DNA of 11,496 nt. Origin: a virus (Duplodnaviria; Heunggongvirae; Uroviricota; Caudoviricetes). Location of the stretch: positions 1 through 11,496 of the IMG/VR virus record IMGVR_UViG_2541047847_000003; one strand, written 5' to 3'. The notes under the pieces were generated by a model. It did no database searches, had not been told where the DNA came from, and saw nothing but the letters and a program-made list of their open reading frames with translations. This document shows positions 1 to 11,082 of the stretch, one piece after another. The stretch's first letter is position 1. Each line of letters opens with the position of its first letter. The position numbers and the translations under genes are program-made.

Positions 1-95
1 AGTTTGCTCCTGCCATAACGTGAAGAAGCAATGACCTGGTGGTCCGTGACTTCCCTACGCTGGCATTATCCAGATCAGGTGATACGGGTATTTCT
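1..95 (-). promoter_or_regulatory. thiM: 3' part of the thiM TPP riboswitch (aptamer 3' half plus expression platform); thiM start codon lies just beyond the left edge
   Basis: Reverse complement of 1..95 reads AGAAAUACCCGUAUCACCUGAUCUGGAUAAUGCCAGCGUAGGGAAGUCACGGACCACCAGGUCAUUGCUUCUUCACGUUAUGGCAGGAGCAAACU, which matches the well-studied E. coli thiM thi-box leader as I recall it. Confidence 0.85.
82..95. other. attL core: 14-bp ATACGGGTATTTCT, identical to the copy at 11083..11096
   Basis: Exact 14-bp direct repeat at both island ends; flanking bases differ on both sides (81 g vs 11082 a; 96 t vs 11097 c). The repeat lies inside the riboswitch sequence. Confidence 0.75.
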
Positions 96-160
96 TACTA
101 ATTACTTTTACCAGTTGATAATAAATAAGTTTTTAAGAACGCATAAATTAAAAACCTCAG

Positions 161-2174: not shown

Positions 2175-2558
2175 TCAACCAATCAACTTATAGCGACCAT
2201 CCCGTGCATTGCGACGTACACGCTCAATCTTGAGGCATAGCGCCGCATCTGGCTTTTTGGGGACAGGTACGCGGCAATATTCAGAAGCTCGAGGAATATT
2301 GTTTATCCAGTCGATCACTTCACTTAAATACCAGGCCTTACGCCCTTCCGTAACCTGTACGCGTTCGGGGAACTCTCCACGAGCCTCAAGGTTTAGCAAT
2401 GTGCGACGGCTAAGGGTAGTAAGTTCCATCACCTGATTCATATCAACAAGGCGTTCACTTAAACGCATTTTGTCAGCAATAGCCTTTAATTCCTCTACTG
2501 CTGGATCCGGATACATCATTTCGGCAATTGGCTTAAGGTCATTGTAATGATTCTGCAT
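2175..2558 (-). CDS. AlpA/Vis-family HTH protein (second copy), 127 aa
   Basis: Central segment LTTLSRRTLLNLEARGEFPERVQVTEGRKAWYLSEVIDWI matches the AlpA-type HTH pattern. GGGGGA Shine-Dalgarno 4 nt upstream of the ATG; sits between the decoration gene and cos. Confidence 0.65.
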   Translation of the reverse strand: MQNHYNDLKPIAEMMYPDPAVEELKAIADKMRLSERLVDMNQVMELTTLSRRTLLNLEARGEFPERVQVTEGRKAWYLSEVIDWINNIPRASEYCRVPVPKKPDAALCLKIERVRRNARDGRYKLIG

Positions 2559-5130: not shown

Positions 5131-6948
5131 TTAATTTTTGCTATCGTCATTAGTGACCGATACACATGATGGCATCCAGTCTTCTGATTCCTCCGTCAGT
5201 GTCACGTTTGAACGCAAACCGTGCTTCGTTTTCCGTTTCATATACTCCCTGCCATATTCCGCCATTGCCCCCGGCATATCTTTACCGAAGCGCGTCAGTG
5301 TTACAGGTTTACCAAACCCATGTGCCCTCATATAAGCCAGATAGGCATGATAGAGATACCTGCGTGGGCTGAATGGCACAATTTCAGCATTACCCACTAA
5401 CAGGCCATCACACATTACCGACGCCATGAGATAGCCGCAGAAGTCCACCAGCGAATCCCCCTCTCGCTTTATCGCCAGTGCTTCTTCAGATTTCTGCTGC
5501 TCATATAACAGGCGTCTGGCTTCGTCCTGGTCAGCAAACCGTGTAAGCAGATGGCGAATCACTACCGCCAACTCACCTTCTATTTTTTCCGCCAGCATTG
5601 GATCGCGTTCGTTCTCCGGTACAACTTCCGAAAAATTGAATATCACCCGACGACGTGAGATCCCCCCGCTGCGGTCACTGAATGACATGGCGTTATTGTT
5701 AACCGCCAGCACTACTGCCGGAATACGCGTTGAGTAGGGGGCTTTGTGTTTCGGGTCAATTGCCACCTTGTCACCGCCTGTAATGGCCTTAATTCCTGCC
5801 CCATCACCAGCGTAGCGGGTCATATCCGGCATGATAATCAGCGAAAAGCCAACCACTAACGCGCGTTCCCTTGCATCTTCCAGCGCCTTCATGCTTGCCG
5901 ATACTGTGTTGGCCTTACCCGCCAGCATGGTGCAAATCTCCGCCATCACGCTTTTACCACTTCCCCCTGGACCTGTTACCTCAATGAATAACTGCCAGTC
6001 GTACCGGTTCGCCAGCACCATGAATAATGCAGCCAGTACGCGATCCGCCTTGCGGTCATTCTCAGCCACCGAACGGCGTAACCACTTCCAGAAATTCGGC
6101 GCATGTGTTGCCAGCGTTTCCCCCTCTGCTGGTGGGCTGAAAGGTAATTCACTGGCAATTAACAACCAGTCGTTTTTGTTATGCTCCCGAAAATTACCTG
6201 TTCTGGTATCAAATACCCCGTTACTGAATCCAATCAGGTTACGGGCTGTATTCCCCATTACAGGCAAACTTAACTTCATGGTATCGACCGCCGATTTAAT
6301 GGCGTTCTGCGAATAGCTGATCTCTGCATCAATGAAAATCTGCGCCATAGCTCGCTGTAATTCTTTATCCTGTACTGGCTCCCATACAACGCCGTTGTAA
6401 TGGTGAACAGTGTCAGAGTCAGCATGAATCGCCAGTTCACCGCCATAATGTGCCAGGAGAACTTCGCCGCGTTGACTTGCTCCCATCTGGTTAAGCGCCA
6501 GTGATGAAGCGTTATCGTCTTTTACCCGCTCTTTTTTCTTTACAGGCAGTTCAACTACCTTTTTCTTTTCCGCCAGCTCTGCCCGTTCACGTTCCAGATA
6601 TTCGCGCCAGTTCTCCCGTTTCTGGCTGTGCATTCCTTCAGGGTAATAATCAGCATCCCTGACACCTGCCGCTGCCAGTTTCTGCCCGATGGTATTAACA
6701 AGCCCCGGACGCAATAACCCCGCCTGATAGAGACGCACGCGATAGCGTCCGTCCGGTACGATTTGCAGGTTGTCCAGTTCGGCAAGTTGTTGCTCTCCAA
6801 GCCAGACAGGAGGCACGTTATCGCCAGCCAGTCGCCCGTCCTGTTCCTGCCACTGCTTCGCATGTGCCCACGCATCACTACCCGCAAAAATGATGACTTC
6901 CGTCATTTTGTCACGCGGCTGGTGTTTTAAATTTGGCGCTTTTTTCAT
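5131..6948 (-). CDS. P4 alpha-like replication protein (primase/helicase family, D5-type P-loop NTPase)
   Basis: Walker A GPGGSGKS and a Walker B-like hydrophobic stretch; adjacent TGTTCACC iterons. Start set at the ATG giving MKKAPNL (GGAGAGAG upstream); the ORF track start at 6963 is a GTG. No primase catalytic motif was identified by eye. Confidence 0.8.
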   Translation of the reverse strand: MKKAPNLKHQPRDKMTEVIIFAGSDAWAHAKQWQEQDGRLAGDNVPPVWLGEQQLAELDNLQIVPDGRYRVRLYQAGLLRPGLVNTIGQKLAAAGVRDADYYPEGMHSQKRENWREYLERERAELAEKKKVVELPVKKKERVKDDNASSLALNQMGASQRGEVLLAHYGGELAIHADSDTVHHYNGVVWEPVQDKELQRAMAQIFIDAEISYSQNAIKSAVDTMKLSLPVMGNTARNLIGFSNGVFDTRTGNFREHNKNDWLLIASELPFSPPAEGETLATHAPNFWKWLRRSVAENDRKADRVLAALFMVLANRYDWQLFIEVTGPGGSGKSVMAEICTMLAGKANTVSASMKALEDARERALVVGFSLIIMPDMTRYAGDGAGIKAITGGDKVAIDPKHKAPYSTRIPAVVLAVNNNAMSFSDRSGGISRRRVIFNFSEVVPENERDPMLAEKIEGELAVVIRHLLTRFADQDEARRLLYEQQKSEEALAIKREGDSLVDFCGYLMASVMCDGLLVGNAEIVPFSPRRYLYHAYLAYMRAHGFGKPVTLTRFGKDMPGAMAEYGREYMKRKTKHGLRSNVTLTEESEDWMPSCVSVTNDDSKN

Positions 6949-7244
6949 TTCTGCTCTCTCCACGCGGCAATCATGTTTTTCAGTTCCTGTAGTTTTTTAT
7001 CCACATCCACACGTGACACATGGTTATTTCTGGAAGTCGGGATTTCCCGCCGGAATCTGCAAATAAAGATCTCCACGTTCAGCGAACTAAGAAATGAATA
7101 GCCATCACGAATAAAATACACACGGTCAAACATCAGTTCTTTTACCGTTACTCTGTTACCGTTCTTATCCAGATAAATAGCGCCGGGGATAATTTTGGGG
7201 TGTGCATAACCGCTGGCAGTCAAGCCAGATAAATATGTTCTCAT
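6945..7244 (-). CDS. Hypothetical protein, 99 aa, translationally coupled to the alpha-like gene
   Basis: Stop overlaps the alpha start (ATGA); no recognisable motifs. Confidence 0.55.
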   Translation of the reverse strand: MRTYLSGLTASGYAHPKIIPGAIYLDKNGNRVTVKELMFDRVYFIRDGYSFLSSLNVEIFICRFRREIPTSRNNHVSRVDVDKKLQELKNMIAAWREQK

Positions 7245-7250
7245 GATTAT

Positions 7251-7571
7251 TTATCCCCGATTTGAATCAGTATTCGCTTTCTTTATGGCATTTAATGCAT
7301 CTGTGGCATTTTCAATGGTGCACCGTAACGAAATATCAAACTGCCCAAGCATTGCCAGTAACAAACCGATATTACCCATATCAATGCGCATAGCCTTTTC
7401 GTCATAGTCCTCATTTTCTGACGCATGCCACATCAGACTACCAATTGACGCAACAGCCATTGATATATTGTCAGTAGCCCCATCCGCAGCGGAATAAACC
7501 TTTTTAGCAATATCATGCTCACAGTTAAAATGCGGATTAATCAGGTACTGGTAATTTGACATATCAGGCAT
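7251..7571 (-). CDS. Hypothetical protein, 106 aa
   Basis: ORF in the same operon; its start overlaps the stop of the upstream 67-aa ORF (ATGCCTGA). Confidence 0.55.
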   Translation of the reverse strand: MPDMSNYQYLINPHFNCEHDIAKKVYSAADGATDNISMAVASIGSLMWHASENEDYDEKAMRIDMGNIGLLLAMLGQFDISLRCTIENATDALNAIKKANTDSNRG

Positions 7572-7767
7572 GGCACACCCCCTGACGAATACGGGCGGCG
7601 AATACCATCACGCAGCCAGCCGGGGATTGCTGGCGTGCTTCCTGTTCGCTGGTGGCCACGATGTGAATCACGCGCGGTTGTGCGGTGCTCAGGGCGATAA
7701 AACGCCAGATGTATTTATTCAGGTCGTGCGAGTCCCGCCCTTGCGGGTGTGTGGTATGATTTCTCAT
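7564..7767 (-). CDS. Hypothetical small protein, 67 aa, first gene of the replication operon
   Basis: Internal ATG of the 320-aa track ORF, preceded by GAGG; the sequence upstream in that frame looks non-coding. Stop is coupled to the next gene. Confidence 0.45.
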   Translation of the reverse strand: MRNHTTHPQGRDSHDLNKYIWRFIALSTAQPRVIHIVATSEQEARQQSPAGCVMVFAARIRQGVCHA

Positions 7768-7863
7768 AGCTACCTCGATACGCTTTCTATCGTTGGTGGT
7801 TAGAAGCCCGGTTAGTGTTAGCGCACTGCCGGGTTTCGTCGTTTCTGCACCTTGCATCAACAA

Positions 7864-7917
7864 GGTGTTGAACACCAATTTAAGCCTAGGTGTTAAACAC
7901 GTCAAGTGTTGAACACT
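7864..7917. promoter_or_regulatory. Three operator-like inverted repeats (GGTGTTGAACACC, GGTGTTAAACAC, AGTGTTGAACACT) in a divergent promoter region
   Basis: Repeats at 7864..7876, 7889..7900 and 7905..7917. The third overlaps a candidate -35 (TTGAAC) placed 17 bp from CATACT for the plus-strand gene. Confidence 0.6.
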
Positions 7918-7966
7918 TATTTTTTTTCCTGCATACTGCATTTGTTTTTTGTAAGGGGTACACAAC

Positions 7967-8146
7967 ATGGCGACAAAAGCAGTAAACGCAAAATCACAAA
8001 CAGTTGCGGCAAGGGTTCCGCATGAAGTTATGAACAATGTTGAGGCGGTAAAAATGCCTGGTGAAAGTACAGGGCAGTTTGTAACAGCAGCATTAAAGCG
8101 AGAAGTTGAATACCGCCAGCGTCGCAAGGCCAAAGAGCAGGAGTAA
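7967..8146 (+). CDS. Small ribbon-helix-helix-like protein, 59 aa; candidate repressor
   Basis: Below the ORF-track length cutoff. AGGGG Shine-Dalgarno 8 nt upstream. Pattern QTVAARVPHEVMNNVEAV...GESTGQFVTAALKRE fits a beta-strand/helix/helix RHH layout. Confidence 0.5.
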   Translation: MATKAVNAKSQTVAARVPHEVMNNVEAVKMPGESTGQFVTAALKREVEYRQRRKAKEQE

Positions 8147-8203
8147 CCATCACCAGCGCCGTGGTGCGGTGAACTGTGGCGCACAGGGTTACAGGTATCT
8201 ACG

Positions 8204-8383
8204 ATGACTGACAAATCATTAAAGAAATTATCCTCATCCAAGAAAAAACAACGCAAAAATGCGGTAAACGAACATGAACCGGAGAGATTCGCACCATGTG
8301 CGTTTGTCCTTGAGAAGTACCTTAAAGAGTATTCTAGGAAAATACGCTCATTGCAGGCATGGCAGCGAATCGAGCCAGACTGA
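8204..8383 (+). CDS. Hypothetical small basic protein, 59 aa
   Basis: ORF found by hand downstream of the RHH-like gene and before the plus-strand terminator; weak Shine-Dalgarno. Confidence 0.3.
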   Translation: MTDKSLKKLSSSKKKQRKNAVNEHEPERFAPCAFVLEKYLKEYSRKIRSLQAWQRIEPD

Positions 8384-8447
8384 TAGCATTGCCCACCAGC
8401 CAACAACCTGGTATTCTGGATATGCTCAAGTTTAGTGTTATGCCACT

Positions 8448-8477
8448 GGCGACCGCCCTTGGTCGCCTTTGTTTTAT
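8448..8477 (+). terminator. Rho-independent terminator (plus strand)
   Basis: GGCGACC, loop GCCCTT, GGTCGCC, followed by TTTGTTTTAT. Confidence 0.6.
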
Positions 8478-8494
8478 GTGTCATAGCTCCCCCC

Positions 8495-8719
8495 CTACGC
8501 TGCCTTACCTGAATTAACGCGGTCACGGCTTTGCACCCAGTCCATAACTTCGGAAAGCAACCAGCCTACAGAACGCCCCCCAAGATTACGGCGAGACGGA
8601 AAGCCCCCTTTCTTCTCCAGTTCGTAGCGTGTAGTACGGCTGACGCCTGTTAACTTACGACATTCATCTTCACGAATTACGCGATCTGTTAGTGATTGAA
8701 ATTGTGTATTTTGATTCAT
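8495..8719 (-). CDS. alpA: AlpA-family transcriptional regulator / excisionase-like HTH protein
   Basis: 74 aa; RKLTGVSRTTRYELEKKGGFPSRRNLGGRSVGWLLSEVMDWV matches the AlpA/Vis-type HTH pattern; GAGGG Shine-Dalgarno. Confidence 0.8.
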   Translation of the reverse strand: MNQNTQFQSLTDRVIREDECRKLTGVSRTTRYELEKKGGFPSRRNLGGRSVGWLLSEVMDWVQSRDRVNSGKAA

Positions 8720-10928: not shown

Positions 10929-10995
10929 AAACTGACCACACAACTGACCACACATTTCGCTGAAACTCGGCAAACAACAACGAACAGCAACAAAC
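10929..10995. repeat. int-proximal arm block: tandem AACTGACCACAC x2 plus CAACAACGAACA-type repeats; homologous to 161..235
   Basis: AACTGACCACAC at 10929..10940 and 10941..10952, about 30 bp upstream of the int start. Confidence 0.6.
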
Positions 10996-11082
10996 GAGAA
11001 AGCCAATTAAATCATTGTATATCAAACATATACACAAACAATCACGAACATCCCAGAACTACAAAAAACACTAAATGAGAAA

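What the first reader, a model, noticed from the sequence alone, without database searches (positions are those of the whole stretch)
6945..7767. Three coupled small genes ahead of alpha in the position where P4 carries its helper-derepression gene
The 67-, 106- and 99-aa ORFs are translationally coupled to each other and to alpha (overlapping ATGA and ATGCCTGA junctions), and none has motifs I recognise. By position they are candidates for helper-interaction functions such as antirepressor, helper sensing or interference.
Basis: inference. Interest (0 to 1): 0.4.

Follow-up and report, generated by a model that had tools for sequence, protein, structure and literature searches.

The report
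Leader genes of a PICI replication operon
The three small genes are the front end of the replication operon of an E. coli phage-satellite island: a homologue of the P1 cell-division inhibitor Icd, an orphan acidic helical protein, and an RgdR-family (DUF4222) protein; the block is already widely annotated, but it seems to be gated by an unannotated antisense RNA.

Summary
Three minus-strand ORFs (67, 106 and 99 aa) run head-to-tail into a D5/P4-type primase: an 8-nt overlap (ATGCCTGA), a 6-nt spacer (not an overlap), then a 4-nt overlap (ATGA).

Two of the three belong to known families:
- orf67 is an Icd-like protein. It aligns to the FtsZ-binding core of P1 Icd.
- orf99 is a DUF4222/RgdR-family protein.
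- orf106 is a narrow orphan family, predicted to be an acidic helical hairpin.

The island is an EcCICFT073-type PICI. In 75 of 75 related loci the order is Icd-like, then 1-6 variable small ORFs, then DUF4222, then primase.

The P4 analogy is positionally correct. P4 also has an Icd-like ORF that overlaps epsilon by 8 nt. No window protein is homologous to epsilon, ORF151 or ORF106 of P4.

Two control elements lie next to the block:
- A predicted ~79-nt cis-antisense RNA (7768-7846, +) covers the Icd-like ribosome-binding site. It has strong covariation, a strand-specific terminator and a SymR-like layout.
- Operator repeats co-vary with the divergent YlcI/YnfO-family gene.

The likeliest model is an antisense-gated leader cistron whose translational coupling passes control down to the primase. 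No helper-directed function was shown.

The parts
7564..7767 (-). orf67: Icd-like protein, first cistron of the operon
   Evidence: NCBIfam NF033153 scores 71.2 bits against a cut-off of 25. phrog_6196 E = 1e-43. BLASTP to P1 Icd gives 37% identity over 43 aa, E = 7e-7, with residues 18-60 aligned to Icd 11-50. GAGG lies 6 nt before the ATG. dN/dS is 0.37.
7251..7571 (-). orf106: orphan acidic (pI 4.6) protein predicted to be a two-helix hairpin; sits in the variable slot
   Evidence: phrog_15327 only; no Pfam, NCBIfam or PADLOC hit. Only 16 hits among 1.8 billion representative proteins, about 5 of them true distant homologues of roughly 100 aa. AF2 gives pLDDT 79 with helices 19-51 and 58-105. 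No significant fold match in PDB or BFVD. dN/dS is 0.34.
6945..7244 (-). orf99: DUF4222/RgdR-family basic protein (pI 9.9), coupled to the primase by ATGA
   Evidence: Pfam PF13973 scores 61.4 bits against a cut-off of 27. phrog_285. 34% identical to CFT073 C1493, the RgdR orthologue. It lies immediately 5' of the primase in 75 of 75 loci.
5131..6948 (-). D5_N/DUF5906/Pox_D5 primase-helicase (pri-rep), downstream end of the coupled chain
   Evidence: Pfam and PHROG hits. RefSeq calls it 'DNA primase family protein'.
7768..7846 (+). Predicted cis-antisense sRNA: two hairpins plus a U-rich tail, complementary to the Shine-Dalgarno site and 5' UTR of orf67
   Evidence: Folding gives dG -35.1 kcal/mol, z = -5.5. 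Across 39 distinct alleles 95.4% of cells are paired, against 34-51% when the structure is slid; hairpin 2 has 9 of 15 pairs with compensatory changes; 0 of 500 shuffles reach this. Pairing would be 80.1% on the opposite strand. The 10 nt after hairpin 2 hold on average 5.1 T on this strand and 1.0 on the other. Rfam SymR scores 32.8 bits, E = 0.0044, below the GA of 61. My own CM finds the annotated K-12 symR as its best hit.
7752..7760 (+). Extended -10 (TGGTATGAT) for the antisense RNA, inside codons 3-6 of orf67
   Evidence: Read from the sequence. It aligns with the symR -10. The TG is invariant and the variants are TATAAT or TATTAT. Third-codon variability is about 0-0.02 in codons 1-24, against up to 0.11 (block values 0.00-0.11) later in the gene.
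7877..7905 (-). Sigma-70-like promoter of the orf67 operon (TTGACG, 17 nt spacer, TAAATT)
   Evidence: Consensus scan only. The TTGAC motif is conserved next to the operators in other alleles.
7863..7916 (.). Three operator-like repeats (A/G)GTGTT(G/A)AACAC that overlap the promoter
   Evidence: Repeat finding. The repeat word differs between islands and co-varies with the allele of the YlcI/YnfO-family gene, but not with AlpA.
7967..8146 (+). Divergent 59-aa YlcI/YnfO-family gene, the candidate operator-binding regulator
   Evidence: NCBIfam NF041551 scores 59.7 bits. Co-variation with the operator word.
8495..8719 (-). AlpA-family regulator upstream, in the same orientation
   Evidence: Pfam PF05930 scores 58.8 bits. 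AlpA is the helper-dependent activator of EcCICFT073 (PMC6092414).

Best explanation
The three genes are the promoter-proximal cistrons of the replication operon of an EcCICFT073-type phage-inducible chromosomal island (PICI).

SHOWN:
- orf67 is an Icd-family protein that keeps the segment of P1 Icd sufficient for FtsZ binding and division arrest.
- orf99 is an RgdR/DUF4222-family basic protein. It always lies directly before the primase and is coupled to it.
- orf106 is one of several unrelated small-protein cassettes that occupy a variable slot between these two conserved genes.
- A structured element with covariation and a strand-specific terminator lies antisense to the orf67 ribosome-binding site.
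- Operator repeats at the operon promoter co-vary with the divergent YlcI/YnfO-family gene.

INFERRED MECHANISM:
- In the quiescent island the promoter is held by the YlcI/YnfO-like protein.
- Stray transcripts are neutralised by a constitutive ~79-nt antisense RNA that pairs with the Shine-Dalgarno site and leader of orf67.
- Because orf67, orf106, orf99 and the primase are translationally coupled, blocking the first cistron also lowers expression of the rest, including the primase.
- When a helper phage switches the island on (AlpA-dependent in EcCICFT073), mRNA outruns the antisense RNA.
- Icd-like protein then blocks FtsZ and stops host division. The DUF4222 protein is made in step with the primase, probably as a DNA-binding replication or nucleoid accessory. 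orf106 supplies an allele-specific accessory activity of unknown target.

This is the same logic as c4 RNA-icd-ant in P1 and Icd-like ORF/CI RNA-epsilon-alpha in P4.
For: Identity of the genes:
- Family hits for all three.
- Alignment of orf67 to the Icd core, read against the mapping of that core in PMC11897509.
- Alignment of orf99 to the RgdR orthologue of CFT073.

Island type:
- int, AlpA, primase, SSB, TerS, major head and decoration genes are present, with flanking direct repeats.
- The gene order is the same as in CFT073.

Conserved order and coupling:
- 75 of 75 loci have this order, with -4, -8 and -11 overlaps.
- The satellite vB_KppS-Ant shows it too, as does P4.

Antisense RNA.

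Operator and regulator co-variation.

P1 precedent: icd overlaps ant1 by 4 nt, C4 RNA target sites cover the icd ribosome-binding site, and the record notes that icd is 'apparently required for expression of ant'.

Toxicity of a related block, dependent on the Icd-like gene and its two downstream small genes.

AlpA as helper-dependent activator.
Against: - No expression data. The antisense RNA, its promoter and the operon promoter are predictions.
- Hairpin 1 never varies, so it carries no covariation signal.
- The Rfam SymR score is below threshold. Five other loci gave no SymR hit under default filters, and the CFT073 allele (L002) gave none even in a permissive 301-nt search.
- The orf106/orf99 junction is a 6-nt spacer, so coupling there is weaker.
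- FtsZ binding by this Icd-like protein is untested. It is only 37% identical to P1 Icd over 43 aa.
- The AF2 model of orf99 was poor (pLDDT 51), so nothing structural supports a replication role.
- RgdR has a documented regulatory phenotype that does not need the primase.
- The function of orf106 is unknown.
Confidence: 0.55

Rival explanations
1. One reading: one of the three, most plausibly orf106 in the epsilon position, acts on the helper phage, for example by inactivating its repressor (antirepressor or epsilon-like), by sensing the helper, or by interfering with it.
For: - orf106 occupies exactly the slot that epsilon holds in P4, downstream of an Icd-like ORF with an 8-nt overlap.
- In P1 the gene coupled to icd is the antirepressor ant.
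- The slot is hypervariable between otherwise near-identical islands: families F2-F10, all of unknown function. That pattern is typical of genes in conflict with phages.
- orf106 is small, acidic and helical.
- Transposon insertions in the two small genes downstream of the Icd-like gene suppressed phage-protein-triggered arrest in ECOR61.
Against: - No homology to the epsilon family (PF25738) or to any antirepressor family.
- No fold match.
- Helpers of EcCICFT073-type islands are lambdoid phages that are SOS-induced, and the helper activates alpA rather than the reverse. The island therefore has no evident need to derepress its helper.
Confidence: 0.15
2. The block is mainly an abortive-infection or superinfection-exclusion module. 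Icd-like protein is the toxic effector, released when an incoming phage protein disturbs the island's regulation; the small partners modulate it, and replication is secondary.
For: - In ECOR61, the phage accessory gene orf24 triggers growth arrest.
- Suppressor insertions map to the Icd-like gene and the two overlapping small genes after it.
- Removing the Icd-like gene abolishes the effect.
- Six linked genes, including the primase, were needed to reconstitute it.
- A toxin controlled by an antisense RNA fits a type I toxin-antitoxin layout.
Against: - No PADLOC model matches.
- The ECOR61 small genes (61 and 63 aa) belong to other cassette families than orf106.
- The block is universally fused to the primase and lies in the AlpA-controlled lytic operon of islands whose replication depends on it.
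- This rival is compatible with the best explanation rather than exclusive of it.
Confidence: 0.25
3. The two conserved hairpins act in the sense-strand leader of the orf67 mRNA, as a cis-acting ribosome-binding-site trap or attenuator, and no antisense RNA is made.
For: The sense leader also folds (dG -34.2 kcal/mol, z = -2.8) with the Shine-Dalgarno site partly paired. About 80% of pair cells would still pair on that strand.
Against: - 16% of pair cells are G-U only on the plus strand.
- The U-rich tail follows hairpin 2 only on the plus strand.
- An extended -10 sits 6-8 nt before hairpin 1 on the plus strand and is conserved against synonymous change.
- The plus strand folds much better: z = -5.5 against -2.8.
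Confidence: 0.15
4. orf99 is above all a host-directed transcription regulator like RgdR (LEE or T3SS activation, motility repression), carried as a cargo virulence gene, and its position next to the primase is incidental.
For: RgdR phenotypes in EHEC, and for the CFT073 orthologue C1493 (PMC3378721). PICI authors list it as an accessory virulence gene.
Against: - It is present in all 75 loci directly before the primase with an ATGA junction, including strains without LEE.
- The window allele has PGA instead of RGD at residues 20-22 and is only 34% identical to C1493.
- The ED1a variant, which lacks R20, was inactive on T3S and did not bind DNA.
- RgdR's DNA binding was non-specific.
Confidence: 0.15

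Closest known systems
EcCICFT073 and O-island 51 (CP-933C), the E. coli Gram-negative PICIs (Fillol-Salom 2018, PMC6092414; Flockhart 2012, PMC3378721)
   Same: Same module order: int, alpA, a divergent YlcI/YnfO-family gene, Icd-like, small ORFs, DUF4222 (RgdR/C1493), primase, small ORF, SSB, capsid, decoration. The overlapping junctions are the same.
   Different: CFT073 has four small cassettes (76, 73, 73 and 77 aa) where the window has the single, unrelated orf106. The DUF4222 alleles are 34% identical and the window allele lacks the RGD motif. The integration site differs: here it lies between the thiM leader and rcnR.
Phage P1 immI operon: c4 antisense RNA, icd, ant1/ant2
   Same: An Icd-family protein is the first cistron. 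Its ribosome-binding site is the target of a small antisense RNA. It is translationally coupled (4-nt overlap) to the functional gene downstream.
   Different: C4 RNA is processed from the same transcript and acts through short complementary boxes. Here the predicted RNA is a true cis-antisense transcript from the opposite strand. Downstream genes are orf106, DUF4222 and the primase rather than an antirepressor. No C4 (Rfam) match was found in the window.
Satellite phage P4 left operon: Icd-like ORF (old 'cI product', kil/eta region), CI RNA, epsilon, ORF151, ORF106, alpha
   Same: The Icd-like domain is at the head of the primase operon. There is an 8-nt start/stop overlap to the next gene, and small genes lead into the primase.
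   Different: P4's Icd-like domain is fused to an Ash domain. Epsilon (PF25738), ORF151 and ORF106 (DUF5375) have no detectable similarity to orf106 or orf99. P4 has no DUF4222. Its immunity uses CI RNA.
SymE/SymR type I toxin-antitoxin of E. coli K-12 (Rfam RF01809)
   Same: An RNA of about 77-79 nt is transcribed from a promoter inside the first codons of a toxic gene, antisense to its 5' end, with two hairpins. The -10, the start point and the second hairpin loop align. The reciprocal CM hit lands on the annotated symR.
   Different: The Rfam score of 32.8 is below the GA of 61. The CFT073 allele of the element does not hit SymR even in a permissive search, and five other loci gave no hit under default filters. 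The target protein is Icd-like, not the AbrB-fold SymE. No LexA control is evident.

Membership tests
Icd-like cell-division inhibitor (NCBIfam NF033153; prototype P1 Icd) | Family HMM match above the curated cut-off | tested here: met
   71.2 bits against a cut-off of 25, residues 19-62.
Icd-like cell-division inhibitor (NCBIfam NF033153; prototype P1 Icd) | Conservation of the P1 Icd core (aa 12-51) that suffices for FtsZ binding and growth arrest | tested here: met
   BLASTP aligns orf67 18-60 to Icd 11-50, 37% identity, E = 7e-7. The core is defined in PMC11897509.
Icd-like cell-division inhibitor (NCBIfam NF033153; prototype P1 Icd) | Binds FtsZ, blocks the Z-ring and causes filamentation | not testable with these tools
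   Needs expression and microscopy, or a two-hybrid assay.
RgdR / DUF4222 (Pfam PF13973) | Pfam match above the gathering score | tested here: met
   61.4 bits against a cut-off of 27, residues 16-67.
RgdR / DUF4222 (Pfam PF13973) | A protein of about 99 aa encoded on a PICI or P4-like island directly before the primase | tested here: met
   75 of 75 loci. The CFT073 orthologue C1493 is in the same place.
RgdR / DUF4222 (Pfam PF13973) | RGD motif at residues 20-22, linked to T3S activation | tested here: not met
   The window has P20-G21-A22; C1493 has RGD. For the motif's role.
RgdR / DUF4222 (Pfam PF13973) | Activates LEE1 and represses motility | not testable with these tools
   This is a phenotype.
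P4 epsilon (Pfam PF25738, Derepression protein family) | Family HMM match | tested here: not met
   P4 epsilon scores 170 bits. None of the three window proteins hits the family at E <= 0.1. BLASTP to epsilon is not significant.
P4 epsilon (Pfam PF25738, Derepression protein family) | Position: directly after the Icd-like ORF with an 8-nt overlap, upstream of the primase | tested here: met
   orf106 junction is ATGCCTGA; P4 junction is GTGCGTAA.
P4 epsilon (Pfam PF25738, Derepression protein family) | Binds the helper repressor and derepresses the helper prophage | not testable with these tools
   Needs an induction assay in lysogens.
SymR antisense RNA (Rfam RF01809) | Covariance-model score at or above the gathering score | tested here: not met
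   32.8 bits against a GA of 61. No hit for the CFT073 allele even in a permissive 301-nt search, and none for five other loci under default filters.
SymR antisense RNA (Rfam RF01809) | Cis-antisense to the 5' end and ribosome-binding site of a toxic ORF, with the promoter in its first codons; two hairpins and a terminator | tested here: met
   Prediction only.
SymR antisense RNA (Rfam RF01809) | Reciprocal similarity | tested here: inconclusive
   The CM built from 39 island alleles finds the annotated symR (1336-1418) as best hit in the 2.5-kb K-12 locus. The score is only 18.5 bits, E = 4.7e-5, and needed the filters switched off.
Gram-negative PICI (Fillol-Salom 2018 definition) | int, alpA and pri-rep in conserved order; about 10-15 kb; flanking att repeats; packaging-redirecting genes but no lysis or tail genes | tested here: met
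   Direct repeats lie at about 161-240 and 10930-11010. Same layout as EcCICFT073.
Gram-negative PICI (Fillol-Salom 2018 definition) | Induction, replication and transfer by a helper phage | not testable with these tools
   Experimental.

The most novel reading that the evidence does not exclude
EcCICFT073-type PICIs, present in more than a quarter of complete E. coli genomes, keep their replication operon silent with two undescribed elements. One is a cis-antisense RNA laid out like SymR that masks the ribosome-binding site of an Icd-like leader cistron, so that translational coupling extends the block to RgdR and the primase. The other is an allele-specific YlcI/YnfO-family repressor bound at the promoter. 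Together these would be the 'missing' repression system of Gram-negative PICIs. They would also make Icd plus antisense RNA a recurrent control cassette shared by P1, P4 and PICIs.
Probability: 0.35. Interest if true: 0.6.

Novelty: new member of a known kind. Interest (0 to 1): 0.4.

Why it matters
The block itself is ordinary. It is annotated in over a thousand E. coli genomes, and two of its three genes have characterised relatives.

Its interest lies in what it suggests about Gram-negative PICIs. How these islands stay silent, and how a helper switches them on, was described as unclear in 2018 (PMC6092414). The layout found here gives a concrete, cheap-to-test model: an operator-bound small regulator, plus an antisense-gated toxic leader cistron coupled to the primase.

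It also explains why RgdR, known as an EHEC virulence regulator, sits in every such island. And it marks the slot between Icd-like and RgdR as a hot spot of uncharacterised small proteins at the position where P4 keeps its helper-derepression gene.

Tried and rejected
1. By eye, orf106 looked related to the 72-87-aa cassettes (my families F4 and F7) that precede DUF4222 in other islands. hhalign gave 0.1% probability, whereas F4 against F7 gave 79.5%. Rejected.
2. orf106 hits on long proteins (P0178, P0179) are repeated matches to kinesin-light-chain-type TPR repeats of a eukaryote-like NB-ARC protein. This is a helix-turn-helix resemblance, not homology.
3. Fold searches with the orf106 model against PDB and BFVD found only generic helical hairpins, with E > 0.5.
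4. AF2 on orf99 gave pLDDT 50.7, too poor for a fold search.
5. PDB sequence and profile searches for all three proteins and for the YlcI-like protein found nothing.
6. PADLOC has no defence-system model for any of them.
7. The genome-contig scan with the DUF4222 alignment confirmed only two loci, so it gave no information on taxonomic breadth. The viral-contig scan returned mostly the same island type.
8. No Rfam C4/CI RNA match in the window. The CFT073 allele of the antisense element gave no SymR hit even in a permissive search, and five other loci gave none under default filters, so homology to SymR is not claimed.
9. Literature searches linking SymR with Icd, or CP-933C with sRNAs, found nothing relevant. 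A paper that mentions 'icd' with EcCICFT073 refers to isocitrate dehydrogenase.
10. My guess that the YlcI/YnfO-like protein has a ribbon-helix-helix fold has no Pfam or PDB support, so I do not assert it.
Full report
**1. The observation**

The window carries three ORFs on the minus strand at the stated coordinates: orf67 (7767..7564), orf106 (7571..7251) and orf99 (7244..6945). They are followed by a 605-aa primase that starts at the ATG at 6948.
- The orf67/orf106 junction is ATGCCTGA, an 8-nt overlap.
- The orf99/primase junction is ATGA.
- The orf106/orf99 junction is not an overlap. It is a 6-nt spacer (TAA ATAATC ATG).

Each start has a Shine-Dalgarno-like motif. The genes are not chance ORFs. 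The 901-bp block is found in 1460 of 5426 complete E. coli genomes, 448 of them covering at least 80% of it. [quoted passage not shown] Among about 50 distinct alleles per gene, dN/dS is 0.37, 0.34 and 0.30. These pairs are not independent, so the figures are only indicative.

**2. What the island is**

The window holds the following genes:
- a tyrosine integrase;
- a DUF6387 protein;
- AlpA;
- two small plus-strand genes, one of the YlcI/YnfO family;
- the three small genes and a D5_N/DUF5906/Pox_D5 primase;
- an 81-aa ORF and an SSB;
- a lambda-E-like major head protein and a decoration protein;
- a second AlpA-like protein and a small terminase subunit.

Imperfect direct repeats of about 75 bp, with a 28-bp perfect core, flank it at about 161-240 and 10930-11010. 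There is no tRNA. The neighbours are a thiM-type TPP riboswitch remnant and rcnR. The gene order matches EcCICFT073 of strain CFT073 gene for gene. It is therefore a Gram-negative PICI of the EcCICFT073/O-island-51 type (PMC6092414).

**3. orf67**

orf67 matches the NCBIfam Icd-like domain at 71.2 bits, against a cut-off of 25. I fetched P1 icd. BLASTP aligns orf67 residues 18-60 with Icd residues 11-50 at 37% identity, E = 7e-7. That segment coincides with residues 12-51 of Icd. A 2025 study showed that this segment suffices for FtsZ interaction, filamentation and killing (PMC11897509). Membership of the Icd family is therefore supported by sequence. FtsZ targeting is an inference.

**4. orf99**

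orf99 matches Pfam DUF4222 at 61.4 bits, against a cut-off of 27. The characterised member is RgdR (ECs1581, 99 aa) of O-island 51.
- RgdR activates LEE1 and type III secretion and represses motility.
- It bound DNA without sequence specificity in EMSA.
- Its CFT073 orthologue is C1493 (PMC3378721).
- PICI workers state that RgdR 'is encoded by all the analysed E. coli PICIs'.

orf99 is 34% identical to C1493 and has PGA where RgdR has its RGD motif. It is basic, with pI 9.9. An AF2 model from the only alignment I was allowed to use was poor (pLDDT 51). It hints at four short strands followed by two helices. I draw no conclusion from it.

**5. orf106**

orf106 has only a PHROG of unknown function.
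- An exhaustive HMMER scan of 1.8 billion representative proteins found 16 hits. About five are real distant homologues of roughly 100 aa. Some are spurious repeated matches to TPR repeats.
- AF2 (pLDDT 79, pTM 0.60) predicts two long antiparallel helices, 19-51 and 58-105.
- Foldseek against PDB and BFVD finds nothing significant.
- The protein is acidic, with pI 4.6.

**6. Conserved architecture**

I walked downstream from the Icd-like gene in 75 IMG/VR, CFT073 and RefSeq loci that also hold a primase.
- The DUF4222 gene lies directly before the primase in all 75, normally with the ATGA overlap.
- Between Icd-like and DUF4222 there are one to six small ORFs. They belong to at least eight mutually unrelated families and are joined by -4, -8 or -11 overlaps.
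- orf106 is one such cassette (40 of 75 loci) and is unrelated to the others by hhalign.
- The other cassettes also lack any Pfam family, and their PHROGs are of unknown function. One of them is a second Icd-like protein.

The sample is biased towards relatives of this window. The 16.5-kb satellite vB_KppS-Ant shows the same order: an Icd-like domain, an 8-nt overlap, two small ORFs, then the primase.

**7. Comparison with P4**

- In P4 (X51522) the ORF once called 'cI gene product' (8584..8168) has an Ash domain and, at residues 85-132, an Icd-like domain (73.9 bits).
- It overlaps epsilon by 8 nt (GTGCGTAA). Epsilon overlaps ORF151 by 8 nt. ORF106 (DUF5375) and alpha follow.

The window's orf106 therefore sits at the position of epsilon. 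However, epsilon belongs to Pfam PF25738, which none of the window proteins matches. BLASTP between the window trio and epsilon, ORF151 and ORF106 is not significant. tblastn of orf106 and orf99 against 50,697 phage records finds nothing. The analogy is positional, not homologous.

**8. A phage-responsive phenotype in a related block**

In ECOR61, the phage accessory gene orf24 causes growth arrest. Suppressor insertions fall in an Icd-like gene and the two overlapping small genes after it. Removing the Icd-like gene abolishes the effect, and six linked genes including a primase were needed to rebuild it (bioRxiv 10.1101/2023.04.06.535777). The coordinates show the same overlapping layout. The ECOR61 cassettes (61 and 63 aa) are not orf106.

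**9. A predicted antisense RNA**

An Rfam scan gave a sub-threshold, full-length match to SymR at 7768-7840 on the plus strand. That is directly antisense to the orf67 leader (32.8 bits, GA 61, E = 0.0044). The supporting evidence is as follows.
- This strand folds into two hairpins with dG -35.1 kcal/mol and z = -5.5. The sense leader gives z = -2.8.
- In an alignment of 39 distinct alleles, 95.4% of pair cells are paired, against 34-51% when the structure is slid.
- Hairpin 2 has compensatory changes in 9 of 15 pairs, and 0 of 500 shuffles reach this. Hairpin 1 never varies.
- Sixteen per cent of pair cells are G-U, which would be A·C on the other strand. Pairing would fall to 80.1% there.
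- The ten bases after hairpin 2 hold on average 5.1 T on the plus strand and 1.0 on the minus strand. This is the signature of an intrinsic terminator for a plus-strand transcript.
- An extended -10 (TGGTATGAT, 7752-7760) lies 6-8 nt before hairpin 1, inside codons 3-6 of orf67. Its TG is invariant, and its variants move towards TATAAT.
- Third-codon positions of the first 24 codons of orf67 are nearly invariant (about 0-0.02), while later blocks reach 0.11 (block values 0.00-0.11).

Comparison with K-12 symR is suggestive but not conclusive. The -10, the start point and the second hairpin loop line up. A covariance model built from the island alleles finds the annotated symR as its best hit in the sym locus (1336-1418, 18.5 bits, E = 4.7e-5, filters off). 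Against this, the CFT073 allele (L002) does not hit Rfam SymR even in a permissive 301-nt search, and five other loci gave no hit under default filters. I therefore describe the element as SymR-like in layout and do not claim family membership. RefSeq annotates no RNA there, and I found no paper that describes it.

**10. Promoter and operators**

A sigma-70-like promoter (TTGACG, 17 nt, TAAATT; 7905..7877, minus strand) lies about 100 nt upstream of orf67. Three copies of GTGTT(G/A)AACAC overlap it. In other islands the repeat word is different, but the copies within one island match each other. The word tracks the allele of the divergent YlcI/YnfO-family gene. It does not track the AlpA allele or the second 59-aa ORF. 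This makes the YlcI/YnfO-like protein the likely operator-binding regulator. Its fold and its mode of action are not established.

**11. Model**

The identities of the genes, the conserved order, the coupling geometry, the structured antisense element and the operator/regulator co-variation are shown. The following steps are inferred.
- The promoter is repressed by the small divergent regulator.
- A constitutive antisense RNA masks the ribosome-binding site of the toxic Icd-like leader cistron.
- Through translational coupling this also limits orf106, the RgdR-like protein and the primase.
- Helper-dependent activation overrides both controls. This is AlpA-dependent in EcCICFT073.
- Icd-like protein then arrests division, while the DUF4222 protein is produced in step with the primase.

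The same logic is documented for P1, where C4 RNA covers the icd ribosome-binding site and icd is needed for ant expression (annotation). It is mirrored in P4 by the Icd-like ORF and CI RNA. Rivals are given separately. The abortive-infection reading is compatible with this model.

**12. Verdict**

The finding is real and the positional reasoning was sound. The block is nonetheless a widely annotated PICI module with two named families, and no evidence supports an epsilon-like function. A 2026 survey already notes that an Icd-like protein occurs in most Enterobacter satellites (PMC13612085). I rate the finding itself as a new member of a known kind. The interest comes from the unannotated antisense element, the allele-specific operators and the hypervariable slot, all of which are predictions that need wet-lab tests.

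Noticed in passing
window 7863-7916 and 7967-8146 (+); loci L081-L160: Operator-like repeats at the orf67 promoter differ between islands. They co-vary perfectly with the allele of the divergent YlcI/YnfO-family 59-aa gene, but not with AlpA. This suggests an allele-specific ('immunity-type') repressor for Gram-negative PICIs.
   Followed up: partly
window 7564-8526 (-): The orf67 reading frame stays open for 253 codons upstream of its ATG, giving a 320-aa ORF from a GTG. This stretch runs antisense through two family-supported plus-strand genes. Many database entries call Icd-like proteins of 97-118 aa or longer from such upstream starts, and one (P0177) is a 324-aa Icd-like/orf106 fusion. 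The translated sequence looks non-protein-like, so it is probably a shadow ORF, but the lack of stop codons is unexplained.
   Followed up: partly
window 35-122 (-): A sub-threshold TPP riboswitch match (34.4 bits, GA 54.3) that lacks part of the P3 region. It lies just outside the left att repeat, presumably as the thiM leader next to the insertion site.
   Followed up: no
window ~161-240 and ~10930-11010: Direct repeats flank the island, with a 28-bp perfect core AACTGACCACACAACTGACCACACATTT extended imperfectly to about 75 bp. The island is therefore about 10.8 kb, inserted between the thiM leader and rcnR with no tRNA.
   Followed up: partly
L237 (phage P4, X51522) 8168-8584 (-): The P4 ORF annotated in 1990 as 'cI gene product' combines a Phage_ASH domain with an Icd-like domain and overlaps epsilon by 8 nt. 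P4, P1 and PICIs therefore all place an Icd-family ORF under RNA-based control at the head of an operon.
   Followed up: partly
loci L118, L160 (family F8, 154-155 aa): Some islands carry a second, longer Icd-like paralogue of the P4 type (phrog_29966) directly after the first Icd-like gene.
   Followed up: no
window 2175-2558 (-) and 8495-8719 (-): The island encodes two AlpA/phrog_2790-type proteins. One is in the regulatory region and one lies between the decoration gene and TerS.
   Followed up: no
window 8448-8467 (+): A strong terminator-like hairpin (GGCGACCGCCCTTGGTCGCC followed by a T-run) closes the plus-strand YlcI-like/59-aa gene pair just before it would run into alpA.
   Followed up: no
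L001 (NZ_CP098183.1) versus the window: A block of Icd-like, orf106, DUF4222 and primase that is 99.4% identical sits in an island with a different integrase, a different integration site (next to tRNA-Ile, between mug and nfeF) and a different capsid module (a ClpP-protease/capsid fusion). The regulatory-replication module is exchanged as a unit between satellite backbones.
   Followed up: no
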